Source: a virus
Virus record (IMG/VR): IMGVR_UViG_3300008952_000006
Coordinates: 1 to 64,000 of that record
Length of the DNA: 64,000 nucleotides
Reading direction: 5' to 3' (one strand)
Under the pieces are notes generated by a model that was not told the DNA's origin, did no database searches, and worked only from the letters and a program-made list of their open reading frames with translations. Shown one piece after another: positions 13,178 through 57,470 of this stretch (positions are counted from its first letter, which is position 1; each line of letters starts with the position of its first letter). The translations under genes were made by a program, and so were the position numbers.

Positions 13178-13206
13178 GCAAAACTGCCCGTTATTTGTGG
13201 GATAAG
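13178..13206 (+). promoter_or_regulatory. recurrent phage promoter motif driving the RNA array and Ro60
   Basis: GCAAAA-N15-GGGATAAG. Confidence 0.7.
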
Positions 13207-23034: not shown

Positions 23035-23062
23035 GCAAAAGATAGGTAGCTCCTGGTATAAG
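23035..23062 (+). promoter_or_regulatory. recurrent phage promoter motif
   Basis: GCAAAA-N14-GGTATAAG. Confidence 0.7.
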
Positions 23063-50458: not shown

Positions 50459-50782
50459 GTGAAGCATGTCATACCAAAAGAAGTCTCTCTCGGCGGCCAC
50501 TCTATCAAAGTAATCCGCAAAGAAGGTCTTCTTGAACATGCAGAAGCCTACGGTATCTTTGATGGCATTGAGTTAACAATAACAATTGACAAAAGCCTCA
50601 ATGATACCATGGCTTGGGAAACCTTCTGGCATGAAATAGTTGAGGCCATTAATTTTTTCTCAGAGGCCGATTTGGAGCATCGAACGATTCAGATCTTCGG
50701 GCTCCTTCTACATCAGACGGTAAACTCCGTACTTTCGGAACAGCAAGCAAAAAAGACTAATAAAAAGGCAGTTCCAAAGTAA
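50459..50782 (+). CDS. zincin-like hypothetical protein
   Basis: ETFWHEIVEAI (HExxE variant of HExxH). Confidence 0.5.
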   Translation: MKHVIPKEVSLGGHSIKVIRKEGLLEHAEAYGIFDGIELTITIDKSLNDTMAWETFWHEIVEAINFFSEADLEHRTIQIFGLLLHQTVNSVLSEQQAKKTNKKAVPK

Positions 50783-50803
50783 GAGCGTAACTCCGCCGAC
50801 TGC

Positions 50804-50831
50804 GCAAAATCACCACATACTTAGGTATAAT
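50804..50831 (+). promoter_or_regulatory. recurrent phage promoter motif heading the Ubl operon
   Basis: GCAAAA-N14-GGTATAAT. Confidence 0.7.
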
Positions 50832-50894
50832 AGAATTGTATGGATCCCAAAAGATCGCGTCTATTCAGATGATCAAGTTCATAGTCACTCTGTA

Positions 50895-51269
50895 CCTCTG
50901 CTCCCTTGGTTGCCATGGCATAACCGACGAGAGCCAGCGTCACACGATACTTCCTGGTTGAAGAACTGATAAGAGGCCCTTAGGGGCGACCTGTACATCC
51001 TGCGCGTAGCCAGACCCATTCGTGGGTAAGATACGATGACTGTCGGGAAAAGACCGCTTTCGAGTATTCAACGTCAATGTGATTCCCATGATAGCGTTTT
51101 ACGCTCGGTATTTGATTTTGTTGTTTGACTAGGCTGGTCCGCCGAAGCAGGACCTTGTAATTGTTGCTCGTGTGCCGAATTAATTCGTCCGTGCACAGGC
51201 AGCATGTCAATAGCAAAAGCCTTACAAATAGGTATCCTCCCAGTGTAGTAGCTGAGCGAAGAGCAGAGG
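50895..51269 (+). ncRNA. putative ~375-nt structured RNA leader
   Basis: CCTCTGCTC/GAGCAGAGG closing stem; nested ACTG/CAGT, GAGG/CCTC, ACCTGT/ATAGGT, TCCTGC/GCAGGA, ACCCA-TTCG-TGGGT, TTGTAA/TTACAA. Confidence 0.6.
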
Positions 51270-51273
51270 ATTC

Positions 51274-51645
51274 ATGAAAGAATTTGAAATGGTGCCAGGG
51301 CAAGAAGAGTATTGGGCTCTTGTTTCCCAGTCACTAAAGAACCGTAAAAAAGTTAAAACAACCAGCTATGGTGGCTGGACTATTACTAGTTATGTTGGTT
51401 CTCGACCAACAACTGAGACTGGCACAAATATTACTCATATAGAGTATAGCGCTAGTGCCAAAACGGGTGACTTCGAAAGATCGCAGGAGCCCAATCTGTC
51501 CGATGACCCACGAACGATTCGTGTAGACTTTGATGATACATCTGTTGTTACGCTTTCCGCAAAGACAATGGAAGAACTAACAAACAGACTGAAAGAGATT
51601 TTCAATGGTTTTCATTGGGAACAGGAGAAAGAAAGACATGTCTAA
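51274..51645 (+). CDS. hypothetical protein, first gene of the Ubl operon
   Basis: 123 aa; stop overlaps the Ubl start. Confidence 0.6.
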   Translation: MKEFEMVPGQEEYWALVSQSLKNRKKVKTTSYGGWTITSYVGSRPTTETGTNITHIEYSASAKTGDFERSQEPNLSDDPRTIRVDFDDTSVVTLSAKTMEELTNRLKEIFNGFHWEQEKERHV

Positions 51646-52204
51646 CTACTTTGAAGAACAATTAAACGAGGCTACCACCGCACGTGATAACTTTGTCGCA
51701 GCTATGGGCGCAGACTACAGCCGAAGCAACCTGGACCGGCTCCAGGCACTACAGTCACAGGTTGACGCCGCACAGGCGCAACTGCAATCTACAACCCCGT
51801 CCAATGGGTCTAACGGATCCAATGGGTCTAACGGGTCTAACGGTATCGCCGTTAACGTTCAGCCTGCAGATAGCAGCGACGAGAACGTCGAGATGTGTGT
51901 CGTAAGCTTCATCAGGCACGGCAAAACAGACCGCTGCCGTGAGGTGCGTGCAGACGCAACAATCGGTGATATTATCCACACCCTTAATCTTGAGGAGCGA
52001 GGGTCGTGGGATGTAAGCAAACTAACGTTCAAACGGCGCGTTGGCCCAGGGCAAACGGCTGATATCACTGATCCAGCAAACACCAAGTTGGGTCCTGGTA
52101 CACACGAAATCTGGGTTGGGGACAAAGTCTCTGGTGGGCGTCGGCCAAAGCATAGCTGGGGGTTTATCCTTGAGCACGTGCTTGTCAATCACTACGTTCA
52201 GTAG
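51638..52204 (+). CDS. ubiquitin-like protein (coiled coil, SNG linker, beta-grasp, GG, C-terminal extension)
   Basis: EVRADATIGDII beta-grasp pattern; KVSGG at 52124-52138 followed by 21 aa; adjacent to E2/JAB/E1. Confidence 0.75.
   Translation: MSNYFEEQLNEATTARDNFVAAMGADYSRSNLDRLQALQSQVDAAQAQLQSTTPSNGSNGSNGSNGSNGIAVNVQPADSSDENVEMCVVSFIRHGKTDRCREVRADATIGDIIHTLNLEERGSWDVSKLTFKRRVGPGQTADITDPANTKLGPGTHEIWVGDKVSGGRRPKHSWGFILEHVLVNHYVQ
51800..51844 (+). repeat. 5 x 9-bp tandem repeat encoding (SNG)5
   Basis: tccaatggg tctaacgga tccaatggg tctaacggg tctaacggt. Confidence 0.9.
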
Positions 52205-52225
52205 ACCAGACTTAAGACACGACCA

Positions 52226-52265
52226 TGGCGGGGGGCTCCTTACAGGGCCTCCCGCTATTTTTTTT
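52226..52265 (+). terminator. intrinsic terminator between Ubl and E2
   Basis: TGGCGGGGGGCTC/GGGCCTCCCGCTA plus T8. Confidence 0.8.
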
Positions 52266-52275
52266 GGAGGAAGAA

Positions 52276-53406
52276 ATGGCTGCAACCACTAACTGCTTTG
52301 TTCTAGATATTACAAAAAGCGAAGACCACATTGTTGAACAACTGCGCAGTGCGGTTGAGGCTGACTCAAAGAACGACACTGCGAGGATCCTAGAGCTTAA
52401 TGCTCGCATAAAGAAACTGGAGCCAATCTCTAAAATGAATGGCGTCAAAGTCGAAAAGCGGAGTGAAATATATGAGCGCATGCGTGCCCGTATGTCCGCA
52501 AAACATATAGAATACGAAAGAGCCCGAAACCGGGTTCGAACAGCTAGGGACAAGCACTGGGCAAGAATCACTAAGCAAGCTGAATGCGATGCCAGCATAG
52601 ACAGCCTGAAAACGGAAATATCCCGCATAAAACGAAGACTCGAGCATGCGGCAACTCTGTATGAAGGAGACGCCTTCGAAAGGCGAGCGTTGATGTTGAA
52701 ATTCGTTGCAGACCGCGTGGACACTAGCGTGCCAATTACGGTGCAAACCGTCAATGAAAACGAGCTAACAGTCAAATGGAAGACCAGCGACATCTATATA
52801 AAAGATGGTTTCGGTGGAACTCTCCCATTTAACTTTGGAAGCTTCCAGGTTCACATAACGTACAAAACCAGTTCCGAGCGGGGTAATCGTGTAGATGTAT
52901 ACTGTTACGACGCAGCTGATAACGATAAGAGGGCGGACTACTCACACCCGCACCTAAATGAACATGGGCATGCATGTCTCGGAAATCTAGCACCAATGCT
53001 TCTTAAGTTCCTAGGAGAGAAGGATATCGTCGGTGTTATAGAAAAGGTTACGGAGTTCCTTCAACACTACAATAGAGATAACCCGTATATAAAATTAGAG
53101 AACTGGTGCGAGAATAGGTGGGATAACGCCATTTGTGAGTCTGGTCGGCACATCCTAGCGGATTGCACCTGCCCAAGATGTGCTGGTTGTCGCCAAATTT
53201 TTGAAACCCCAGATATTGAAATAAGCGCCTGCGGGCACTGTCCTAGTTGCTGCATGGTCAGCCATATACACGTACCCACAATGACGGGTGTAAACGGTAC
53301 ACACTGCATCAATAGAGCAGAATACCGGCACGTTGAGTGCAACGAAACAAGCCCAGCGGGCTGTACGTATAAGCCAATTGGCGAGCCAACAAATGAAGGA
53401 GCATAG
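52276..53406 (+). CDS. prokaryotic E2 (UBC-like) protein with N-terminal coiled coil and C-terminal Cys/His-rich domain
   Basis: HPHLNEHGHACLGN catalytic motif, then FL.HYN..NPY; 13 Cys in the last ~100 aa. Confidence 0.8.
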   Translation: MAATTNCFVLDITKSEDHIVEQLRSAVEADSKNDTARILELNARIKKLEPISKMNGVKVEKRSEIYERMRARMSAKHIEYERARNRVRTARDKHWARITKQAECDASIDSLKTEISRIKRRLEHAATLYEGDAFERRALMLKFVADRVDTSVPITVQTVNENELTVKWKTSDIYIKDGFGGTLPFNFGSFQVHITYKTSSERGNRVDVYCYDAADNDKRADYSHPHLNEHGHACLGNLAPMLLKFLGEKDIVGVIEKVTEFLQHYNRDNPYIKLENWCENRWDNAICESGRHILADCTCPRCAGCRQIFETPDIEISACGHCPSCCMVSHIHVPTMTGVNGTHCINRAEYRHVECNETSPAGCTYKPIGEPTNEGA

Positions 53407-53407
53407 A

Positions 53408-54442
53408 ATGTCGAAAGTTCTAGAAAACCCAACAGTTCGTTTTACATACAAAGCGTATCAACAGATGCGCGACTTAACAAGAGACTGCCCCACTGAAGTC
53501 AGCGCGATGGGAATCATCGCAACGGACCAGCAACGAGAAGACTTGGGTATAGATGAAAGATTCTATATCCTAAGCTTTGTGGTCCCAGACCAAAGTTGTA
53601 CAGGAGTCTCGACCGTAATGAATACAGACTCTCTGAGTGAGATAGCCTTTGACCTTAGAGACAAGGGCATCCTGTCGGAGCAAGTCTGTGTCTGGTGGCA
53701 CAGCCACGTAAATATGGGAACAGGACACAGCGGCACAGACGAAAAACAGATTGAAGACTTCGACTTTGATGAGGTGTGTATATCACTCATCACCAATAAA
53801 GACGGTGATTTAAACTGTAGGGTCGATCTGTATAAGCCGATCAGATACTCCTTTGAGGAATGCGACTGGTGTGTTGATCCTGTAGATGTCTTAGAGAAGG
53901 ACTGGGCGAAAAAGCAGATCGAAGAGCATGTCTCGGTCCCAGCGCCTACCCGCTTAAATGTTGTTAAGGCACCAGTGGTAAAGAAAACCTACACCCCCTA
54001 CCAGTATGGCGGCTGGAACATGGGCGGTAACTATAGCTGGAACGGTGACTGGGAAGAGGAAGCCGAGGCTGAGAAGGATAAGTCGAAGGCGTCTTCCTAT
54101 GATGAGTACTGCAACTACGATAAAGACGTACCTGAAGTAAACTTCCCCGAGGAGCTTAAGCTGCTGGAGGAGCTACATGAAGAACACGTGGTAACCACAC
54201 AGGAGGCCATGGAGTACTACGCAAAATGGTACGCCAACGAGATAGGTACAGAGGAGCTGGAGGATGAGCTGCAAACTCTTTTCTATGAGAAAGAAATGGG
54301 CGGCGGCCAATCAGAGAAGGACGCAGATGAAGATGACGAGGACGCAGCTGGAAGAAAAATTCTAGAGTCCTTTGTCGTGCATGACATCAACGATGAAGTG
54401 GAAACGCCAAAAGTCTGTTCTGTTGTAGGAGGTTCAGAATGA
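53408..54442 (+). CDS. JAB/MPN+ metallo-isopeptidase with acidic tail
   Basis: TEVS...WWHSHVNMGTGHSGTD (E...HxH-x7-S-x2-D). Confidence 0.88.
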   Translation: MSKVLENPTVRFTYKAYQQMRDLTRDCPTEVSAMGIIATDQQREDLGIDERFYILSFVVPDQSCTGVSTVMNTDSLSEIAFDLRDKGILSEQVCVWWHSHVNMGTGHSGTDEKQIEDFDFDEVCISLITNKDGDLNCRVDLYKPIRYSFEECDWCVDPVDVLEKDWAKKQIEEHVSVPAPTRLNVVKAPVVKKTYTPYQYGGWNMGGNYSWNGDWEEEAEAEKDKSKASSYDEYCNYDKDVPEVNFPEELKLLEELHEEHVVTTQEAMEYYAKWYANEIGTEELEDELQTLFYEKEMGGGQSEKDADEDDEDAAGRKILESFVVHDINDEVETPKVCSVVGGSE

Positions 54443-55101
54443 TAGATACAACCCGACAGTCGGGGATTATCCCAGACAATAAGGTTCAAGAAATATCTGT
54501 CGCCATTGTCGGTGCGGGGTCCATTGGATCCCATACCGCCGAGGTGCTTTGTAAGATGGGTATTCGTAAATTACGCATCTTCGACTTCGACGACGTCGAA
54601 GGACACAACGTGGCCAACCAAGGCTATTACGTACCCGAAATTGGGTATAAGAAGTGTGAGGCTCTACGACTCCGACTTGGTTCGGGAACAGGGGTAGAAA
54701 TCATAGCCGAGAACCGGAGGTATGACGCCGGGGAAAAATTTCAAGAAGAATACGTTATCTCGGCAGTAGATAACATGTCTTCTCGAGCGGACATCTGGTC
54801 CGGTTTCCTAGCAAGCTCTGGTTGTCGCTACTTTCTAGACGCTCGTATGGGGGCAAGAAATGGTTCTGTGTTCTTCGTTGATAAGCGAAGCGTAGAATCA
54901 ATCTCCCGCTACGACCGGTCCTTGTTTCCTGACGAAGAAGCAGTTCAGTTACCGTGTACAGAGAAGAGCACCATCTTCTGTGCATATGGCCTCTCAGGTC
55001 TTATTGGTGCGCTCGTTGCCGAAAGTATTATCGGTGATAATGAGTTAAATTTCTCTGTGGATGTAGATTTCTCCAACATCCACATGTTTCGTAATACGTA
55101 A
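54439..55101 (+). CDS. ThiF/E1-like adenylating enzyme
   Basis: IVGAGSIGS, DFDDVEGHNVANQ, K, AVDN, DARMG, LPCT (candidate catalytic Cys). Confidence 0.92.
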   Translation: MIDTTRQSGIIPDNKVQEISVAIVGAGSIGSHTAEVLCKMGIRKLRIFDFDDVEGHNVANQGYYVPEIGYKKCEALRLRLGSGTGVEIIAENRRYDAGEKFQEEYVISAVDNMSSRADIWSGFLASSGCRYFLDARMGARNGSVFFVDKRSVESISRYDRSLFPDEEAVQLPCTEKSTIFCAYGLSGLIGALVAESIIGDNELNFSVDVDFSNIHMFRNT

Positions 55102-55946: not shown

Positions 55947-55961
55947 ATTTATGAAGAGGGG

Positions 55962-56076
55962 TGACAACAAAGAGGTTGTCAAATGACAACATTGTTATTG
56001 TCGGGCAAAACGCTGTACCAACGGCTACTTACATAGAATATGTGGTATAAGGCAACTGACAACAACGTATCTGTCA
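55962..56076. repeat. three TGACAAC-N6-GTTGTCA palindromes
   Basis: 55962-55981, 55984-56003, 56057-56076. Confidence 0.85.
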
Positions 56077-57194: not shown

Positions 57195-57201
57195 GGAGGG
57201 G

Positions 57202-57315
57202 TGACAGAATGAAAGTTGTCACTCACCGTTATTCGGTAGAATCCCGTAAACAAAGGTAATACCTAGGTTTTTGGTGACAACAATGAAGTTGTCATCGACA
57301 AGGTGAAAGTTGTCA
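57202..57315. repeat. three TGACAAC-N6-GTTGTCA palindromes
   Basis: 57202-57221, 57275-57294, 57296-57315. Confidence 0.85.
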
Positions 57316-57470
57316 CCCTCTAGGTACTTGTGGCTTGCATATGGATGAAGTTATTACCAATAATGTTAAATAGAATTTCTATTTTACCAACACGCTCAGC
57401 TACTACGACAGACGAATTGTTAGTAGCTTTATCTGGCAGCAACACAGTGAAACATGCCAAAGGAGAAACT

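What the first reader, a model, noticed from the sequence alone, without database searches (positions are those of the whole stretch)
50804..51276. ~375-nt multi-domain RNA leader that sequesters the first RBS of the ubiquitin-like operon
Between the promoter (50804) and ATG 51274 there is no credible ORF. CCTCTGCTC (50895-50903) pairs with GAGCAGAGG (51261-51269), which includes the SD, and at least six properly nested helices lie inside. I recognise no known family. Inference: a novel large riboregulator gating the operon, or a trans-acting RNA component of the system.
Basis: partly seen in the sequence, partly recalled or inferred. Interest (0 to 1): 0.75.

Follow-up and report, generated by a model that had tools for sequence, protein, structure and literature searches.

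The report
Uncatalogued folded RNA of marine phages
Ahead of its ubiquitin-like genes this marine phage carries a real, conserved, folded non-coding RNA that matches no catalogued family, but the stem said to block the first gene's ribosome site exists only in this one genome, so the RNA is probably not a translation switch.

Summary
The RNA is real; the proposed RBS gate is not supported. The window lies in a complete 173-kb marine phage. I found 12 distinct orthologous copies (307-542 nt), each behind the same promoter and single-copy in the five other records checked. All share an ordered core: UGAC, hairpin HP1 (GAAA(A)GA loop), a 3-159-nt insert, CUAGG, hairpin HP2 (GCYRAARC), then a long stable hairpin. 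Stems covary and the frame is not kept. The 9-bp 'closing' helix is present but only here (0 of 12 relatives). Its 3' strand is the next gene's RBS, brought next to the RNA by loss of a transglycosylase gene that follows the RNA in 11 relatives. Two unexpected features: the 5' rod's tip loop is a 6-nt palindrome in 11 of 13 copies (four different sequences), suggesting kissing-loop dimers; and HP1 occurs alone in many unrelated phages, in about a quarter of 131 contexts just 5' of a tRNA. No Rfam match. Best reading (0.45): a self-pairing stand-alone RNA presenting a binding module for a host factor. Function and expression are untested. The scan had noted this RNA only in this genome.

The parts
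50804..50831 (+). Phage promoter: GCAAA box (50804) and GGTATAAT box (50824); predicted start of transcription about 50838
   Evidence: Same two boxes at the same 20-nt offset in all 14 copies; similar sites at 23035, 42879, 46282. Start site inferred, not mapped.
50838..50992 (+). Domain I: long, variable 5' rod; weakened in this genome, which lacks about 80 nt present in L018.
   Evidence: Segment folds; alignments with L018; 5' z +0.4 here, -4.0 in L018
50911..50920 (+). Palindromic tip of domain I (CCAUGG, 50913-50918): candidate kissing loop for homodimerisation
   Evidence: 6-nt palindrome at the tip in 11 of 13 copies, four different sequences (tip assigned by inspecting folds); 6 of 84 other loops
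51005..51035 (+). Domain II hairpin, ending directly before UGAC
   Evidence: A hairpin ends just before UGAC in the relatives
51037..51057 (+). Core 1: UGAC plus HP1 (stem 51044-46/51054-56, loop GAAAAGA); the same module stands alone in many phages
   Evidence: Second pair is GC, AU, CG or UA across copies; stand-alone copies
51057..51126 (+). Small UUCG hairpin and variable insert hairpin; dispensable (3 nt in L122, 159 nt in L089)
   Evidence: base helix covaries
51129..51154 (+). Core 2: CUAGG (51129-51133) plus HP2 (stem 51136-40/51150-54, apical GCYRAARC 51141-51148)
   Evidence: Invariant columns in 13 copies; compensatory changes; strict motif found only in orthologues among 4.55 Mb scanned
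51162..51204 (+). Domain VI: long stable 3' hairpin, likely 3' boundary of the RNA; no U tract
   Evidence: 3' segment z -2.1 here, -3.8 to -9.9 in ten relatives, -1.1 in L018; 12 pairs with two-sided changes in six distant copies
51229..51273 (+).
   Evidence: Aligns with the SLT end / RBS of L006, L013, L089, L098; no SLT homologue in this genome
51274..51645 (+). 123-aa conserved protein of unknown function, first gene after the RNA here
   Evidence: 15 homologues; no Pfam/PHROG match; no clear fold match, best Z 4.9
51638..55101 (+). Ubl-like, E2-like, JAB-like and ThiF/E1 genes co-oriented downstream
   Evidence: ThiF E 1.8e-17, Prok-JAB E 0.014; same order in relatives; Ubl and E2 labels rest on motifs only

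Best explanation
A stand-alone structured RNA of about 300-480 nt, made as the 5' end of the operon transcript. Shown by comparison: own promoter, non-coding, single copy, a string of local domains around a small invariant two-hairpin core, independent of which gene follows. Inferred: (1) it folds domain by domain during transcription; (2) the long 3' hairpin and the A/U-rich linker behind it mark a cut site (RNase III or E type) or a protected 3' end, so the RNA can persist apart from the message; (3) two copies pair through the palindromic tip of domain I; (4) the core (UGAC-HP1 beside CUAGG-HP2) is a binding surface for a widely conserved host factor, the same one read by the lone HP1 hairpins in front of phage tRNAs, most likely an RNA-processing, RNA-stability or elongation factor. 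The dimer would act as a decoy or scaffold for that factor during infection.
For: 13 distinct copies with ordered invariant motifs. Core structure: 94.8% of cells paired, 6 of 16 pairs with two-sided changes, 0 of 500 shuffles as high, slid registers 19-42% (relatedness inflates this). A model built without L089 finds it at 69 bits. Whole-RNA z -1.5 to -4.6 in 11 relatives; sense more stable than antisense in 12 of 13. Insert lengths are 0, 1 and 2 mod 3. The next gene is SLT in 11 and the 123-aa gene in 2. Palindrome switching at the tip is the kind of evidence used for OLE L9.3 and GOLLD L21a (10.1101/2024.12.08.627333). Lone HP1: variable pair complementary in 131 of 131 contexts, 38 further copies on the same strand and 0 on the other.
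Against: No expression, end-mapping or binding data. No terminator separates it from the message, and it always sits in leader position, which fits a cis role equally well. Two copies (L094, L122) lack the tip palindrome. The distant group is tied in by synteny, promoter and motifs, not by model score (11-19 bits or no hit, no better than lone HP1). No pseudoknots or dense conserved junctions as in ROOL/GOLLD were found. The host factor is unidentified.
Confidence: 0.45

Rival explanations
1. Cis-acting antitermination or processivity RNA (put/EAR/conAn-like) that loads on the transcribing polymerase so that it reads through the long co-oriented operon; lone HP1 copies would do the same for untranslated tRNA and sRNA stretches.
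For: Always directly behind the promoter of a long operon; indifferent to the first gene; lone HP1 strictly sense-oriented and found in the early leftward operon of mEp390 just after the first ORF.
Against: Intrinsic terminators are hardly enriched behind lone HP1 (6% down, 5% up, 3% far); HK022 26-40 kb has no HP1 with UGAC; a dimerisation loop is not expected; few strong sense terminators in the operon.
Confidence: 0.2
2. Cis-acting processing or stability cassette (nuclease-guiding element or small ribozyme) that matures or protects the operon message.
For: Lone HP1 often ends 4-9 nt before a tRNA (T-loop signature 45-110 nt downstream in 30 of 131, control 1) and precedes an RprA-like sRNA; the core shrinks to about 55 nt in L122; long RNase III-sized 3' stem.
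Against: No match to any Rfam ribozyme; core motifs do not fit the hammerhead, HDV, twister or group I/II consensus as I recall them; does not explain domain I.
Confidence: 0.17
3. One reading: riboregulator or riboswitch that gates translation of the first gene by a long-range helix over the SD.
For: 9-bp helix with P about 0.99 in this genome; the MFE with it is about 12 kcal/mol below the fold constrained to the local rod. Some relatives have predicted SD pairing with various 5' partners. L018 has a shorter complementarity in the same two regions, in another register (read).
Against: 0 of 12 relatives have an equivalent duplex of 8 bp or more; the partners predicted are not homologous; in L018, with the same first gene, pairing of the last 25 nt with the 5' domains is 0.00; the 3' strand is foreign to the RNA. 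It could still dampen translation in this one lineage as a recent accident.
Confidence: 0.08
4. DNA-level element (origin, protein-binding palindromes) or decayed gene, with no RNA function.
For: The window's own copy is not more stable than shuffles; several palindromes.
Against: Covariation with G-U pairs, strand asymmetry, A-rich and UUCG loops, conserved promoter in front, frame not kept, no GC-skew switch here.
Confidence: 0.04

Closest known systems
ROOL, GOLLD and OLE RNAs (10.1101/2024.12.08.627333 = PMC12286853; review PMC12990946)
   Same: Large orphan RNAs, ROOL and GOLLD from phages and prophages; variable stems with conserved A-rich loops; symmetric kissing loops that switch between palindromes (OLE L9.3, GOLLD L21a).
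   Different: No Rfam match; shorter (307-542 nt); no pseudoknot network found; not in a tRNA island (this genome has no tRNA gene); sits in leader position of a protein operon.
HIV-1 dimerisation initiation site (from my own knowledge)
   Same: 6-nt GC-rich palindrome in a hairpin tip; four copies have a 9-nt loop with 2 nt before and 1 nt after the palindrome; one of the sequences is GUGCAC.
   Different: Only a motif-level analogy; flanking bases are not the DIS purines; phage non-coding RNA, not a genome.
HK022 put RNA (PMC9378689) and other antiterminator RNAs such as conAn1 (PMC8191782)
   Same: Structured RNA just behind a promoter at the head of a long operon, independent of the first gene.
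   Different: No HP1 in the HK022 early region; much larger; no read-through data; candidate dimer loop.
Translation-controlling riboswitches and leaders, including int-alpA-like phage leaders
   Same: 5' position, conserved core with variable periphery.
   Different: No conserved anti-SD or terminator platform; no Rfam match; first gene varies.
Candidate viral structured RNAs of Fremin et al. 2023 (PMC10690425)
   Same: Drawn from IMG/VR intergenic regions, where four of these genomes or their kin lie.
   Different: Those candidates are 29-151 nt, so the whole RNA is not among them; HP1 or HP2 alone might be. The supplement was not available.

Membership tests
Any Rfam 15 family | Covariance-model score at the gathering threshold | tested here: not met
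   No hit in the window; best E 5.3 locally; only tRNAs elsewhere in seven relatives' loci at E<=1; none on the RNA in L012, L013, L018.
ROOL/GOLLD/OLE-type multimerising RNAs | Family model match | tested here: not met
ROOL/GOLLD/OLE-type multimerising RNAs | Loop that stays self-complementary while its sequence changes | tested here: met
   11 of 13 tips, four palindromes; 6 of 84 other loops. Tips assigned by inspection; copies are related.
ROOL/GOLLD/OLE-type multimerising RNAs | RNA-only oligomer in solution; discrete abundant transcript | not testable with these tools
   Only contigs were available; one 170-nt RNA-run contig starts upstream of the -10 box and is probably DNA.
RBS-sequestering riboregulator / riboswitch | Conserved, covarying anti-SD helix | tested here: not met
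RBS-sequestering riboregulator / riboswitch | Ligand- or signal-dependent switching | not testable with these tools
   Needs probing and reporters
Intrinsic-terminator attenuator | Hairpin plus U tract before the first gene | tested here: not met
   No sense terminator in 50838-51273; linkers are A/U-mixed, not U tracts.
put-like antiterminator RNA | Promoter-proximal, cis position before a long operon | tested here: met
put-like antiterminator RNA | Sequence or structure shared with HK022 put | tested here: inconclusive
   No HP1 in HK022 26-40 kb; no direct comparison with put was made.
put-like antiterminator RNA | Terminator read-through | not testable with these tools
   Needs transcription assays
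Self-splicing introns, RNase P RNA, tmRNA, small ribozymes | Catalytic-core consensus / family model / ARAGORN call | tested here: not met
   it does not interrupt a gene.
Protein-coding gene | Frame kept across orthologues | tested here: not met
   Insert lengths of all three residues mod 3; lengths 307-542 nt; the 107-aa minus-strand ORF 50980-51303 has no in-frame counterpart across the family.

The most novel reading that the evidence does not exclude
A new class of dimerising phage RNA whose core is built on a 21-nt hairpin module (UGAC plus GAAAGA-loop stem) that phages of many hosts place in front of tRNAs and other untranslated RNAs. The module would be an undescribed handle for one conserved host machine (RNase P, another nuclease, or RNA polymerase/Nus), and this RNA a bivalent decoy or activator of that machine.
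Probability: 0.2. Interest if true: 0.85.

Novelty: new variant of a known kind. Interest (0 to 1): 0.55.

Why it matters
It adds an uncatalogued family to the short list of large orphan phage RNAs, with a compact, mutable core (about 55 nt in the shortest copy) and a built-in prediction (palindrome-dependent dimer) that can be tested in vitro without a host. It also exposes a very common, apparently undescribed phage hairpin that sits just before tRNA genes and occurs in cultured phages (mEp390 of E. coli, Paxi of Stenotrophomonas), so its function can be tested at once. It removes the idea of RNA-gated control of a phage ubiquitin-like system.

Tried and rejected
Rfam at gathering and E-value thresholds: nothing (GlsR13 E 5.3 is noise). 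BLAST of the region against 50,697 phage records: no real hit. First z-score scan timed out. E2-based locus scan found nothing. Two gapped DNA patterns gave, apart from known copies, chance hits; the metagenome scan gave only known lineages and one chance hit. GTDB scan with the SLT alignment gave three weak, unrelated loci. Read laying: two RNA runs hold the same 170-nt contig 50802-50971, which starts upstream of the -10 box; no evidence on expression either way. Pairing of the invariant CUAGG with the domain I loop: rejected, since CUAGG stays when the loop becomes GUGCAC. Resemblances to RNase P J11/12, group I P7, hammerhead, SRP helix 8, glycine aptamer, Y RNA and the 23S A2058 region were considered from memory; order or covariation did not fit. 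RNAalifold on the W/L018 5' alignment did not recover the rod, so rod covariation there rests on single-sequence folds. The 123-aa protein as RNA partner: no family, Atlas or clear fold match. Paper searches for the motif found nothing; supplements of Weinberg 2017 and Fremin 2023 were not held.

Full report
Setting. The window is the first 64 kb of a complete 173,034-bp virus record with direct terminal repeats; the runs that hold it are marine. It has no tRNA gene. The stretch lies between a 107-aa gene ending at 50782 and a co-oriented series starting at 51274: an unknown 123-aa gene, a Ubl-like gene, an E2-like gene, a JAB-like gene, ThiF/E1, then ParB-, AAA- and RecA-like genes.

Observation. 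The 9-bp complementarity exists and is the strongest helix locally; 1 of 300 shuffles matched it. RNAfold hides the SD with P about 0.99. But the copy as a whole is no more stable than shuffles (z -0.96) and most of the nested MFE has low probability. Rfam gives nothing.

Relatives. Through ThiF, the E2-like protein, the 123-aa protein and an SLT protein I collected 12 distinct orthologous loci (L018, L006, L013, L098, L089, L094, L119, L122, L127, L128, L129, L174). Each has a non-coding gap of 307-542 nt behind the same promoter (GCAAA, then GGTATAA 20 nt later). In 11 the gap is followed by an SLT gene and then the 123-aa gene; in the window and L018 the SLT gene is missing, and this genome has no homologue of it. 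The RNA is single-copy in this genome, and the HP1 pattern occurs at most once in five other records.

Anatomy. Folding segment by segment gives one plan: a long variable 5' rod from the start site; a hairpin ending directly before UGAC; HP1; a variable insert; CUAGG; HP2; a long stable hairpin; a short open linker; the SD. HP1 keeps a G-C closing pair and loop GAAA(A)GA while the next pair is GC, AU, CG or UA. HP2 keeps GCYRAARC on a 5-bp stem that covaries in one group and takes a second form in the distant group. On six copies the core structure has 94.8% paired cells and six pairs with two-sided changes, above all 500 shuffles and all slid registers (relatedness makes this optimistic). A model from these six finds the held-out L089 at 69 bits, but scores the distant group only 11-19 bits or not at all; that group is tied in by synteny, promoter and motif order, the strict HP2 motif being found only in orthologues among 4.55 Mb. 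The 3' hairpin has z -3.8 to -9.9 in ten relatives and 12 two-sided changes in six distant copies. Insert lengths break the frame. L122 has HP1 and CUAGG-HP2 only 3 nt apart, so the core is about 55 nt. The window's copy is the least stable of the family, having lost about 80 nt relative to L018.

The proposed gate. None of 12 relatives has a Watson-Crick duplex of 8 bp or more between the last 25 nt and the 5' domains; in L018, which has the same first gene, that pairing has probability 0.00. Positions 51229-51273 align with the last codons of SLT and the RBS of the 123-aa gene in four relatives, so the helix's 3' strand joined the RNA only when SLT was lost. The helix is therefore lineage-specific. 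It may lower translation in this genome (about 12 kcal/mol advantage in the model) but cannot be the family's conserved function.

Palindromic tip. The tip of the 5' rod is CCAUGG (window, L018), CCUAGG (L006, L013, L098, L089, L174), GUGCAC (L119, L128, L129) or ACGCGU (L127); L094 and L122 lack it. It sits at +70 to +87 in one group and +35 to +41 in the other. Of 84 other loops six have such a palindrome. I assigned tips by inspecting folds, and the copies are related, so the independent evidence is the three switches between four sequences. The same reasoning supported intermolecular bridges in OLE and GOLLD (10.1101/2024.12.08.627333). Dimerisation is inferred, not shown.

HP1 alone. In 131 distinct contexts the free stem position was complementary every time; 38 further degenerate copies lay on the same strand and none on the other. 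A tRNA T-loop signature follows at the expected distance in 30 (control 1), the tRNA typically starting 4-9 nt after the hairpin. It is present in mEp390 and Paxi. CUAGG and HP2 do not accompany it. Terminators are not clearly enriched behind it. It has no Rfam family and I found no paper, but could not check two key supplements.

Mechanism. Shown: a conserved, promoter-driven, non-coding, structured element with a small invariant core, indifferent to the next gene. Inferred: release or protection at the 3' hairpin, dimerisation at the tip, and binding of a conserved host factor by the core. I put 0.45 on a stand-alone decoy or scaffold RNA, 0.20 on antitermination in cis, 0.17 on processing or stability in cis, 0.08 on RBS gating, 0.04 on a DNA element or relic. 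Earlier notes report a phage-encoded RNA polymerase and a Ro60/Y-RNA locus in this genome; either could be the partner, and I did not test this. The breadth of lone HP1 argues for a host factor for that half of the core.

Comparison and novelty. It works most like the orphan ornate phage RNAs but is not a member of any Rfam family. It is best called a new family within a known kind. The scan's index holds this RNA only for this genome; palindromic tip loops were noted in other, unrelated phage leaders, which is not independent support. Interest 0.55: real, uncatalogued and testable, but narrow in distribution and without functional data.

Noticed in passing
IMG/VR loci L024-L060 and L175-L254; L117:2502-2523 (mEp390); L118:2001-2023 (Paxi): A 21-22-nt hairpin (UGAC, 4-5-bp GC stem, GAAAGA loop) is very common in phages and prophages of many hosts, always in the sense of transcription, often 4-9 nt before a tRNA or tRNA-like gene, sometimes in several copies; not in Rfam.
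   Followed up: partly
L235:5274-5375 (-) and L117:2615-2690: Prophage small RNAs carrying the RprA seed sequence (RprA model 37.9 bits, below gathering), in L235 directly behind an HP1 variant.
   Followed up: no
window 13178-13205, 23035, 42879, 46282, 50804; genome 119822: Recurrent phage promoter GCAAA(A)-N15-GG(T/G)ATAA(G/T), unlike the sigma-70 consensus; also in front of the Y-like RNAs.
   Followed up: partly
L006:4243-4863 and orthologues; absent from this genome: An SLT-family gene with several conserved cysteines heads the operon in most relatives and was deleted in the window/L018 lineage, leaving about 45 nt of its end.
   Followed up: yes
L006:3303-3740, L013:836-1267, L089:2330-2761: A small SET-domain gene lies just upstream of the promoter in several relatives.
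   Followed up: no
window 51638-52204: The Ubl-like ORF reads on past ...GG for about 16 residues here, whereas L006's ends two residues after GG.
   Followed up: no
window 51176-51187; L119 +175, L174 +162 from the start site: Further palindromic hairpin tips in the 3' hairpin (window, L018) or the insert (L119, L174), possible second dimer contacts.
   Followed up: no
window 55960-56000 and 57200-57320: Repeated TGACAAC/GTTGTCA palindromic boxes in two intergenic gaps, probably operator sites.
   Followed up: no
L119:1189-1262, L127:517-590, L128:51-124, L174:14-87: A single tRNA-Arg(UCU) gene 2-3 kb upstream of the RNA in the distant group; the window's genome has no tRNA.
   Followed up: no
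L063/L094 (GCA_002696855.1): Contigs of this phage group are binned in an 'Alteromonadaceae' MAG, two different operon copies in one bin; probably mis-binned, so no host evidence.
   Followed up: no
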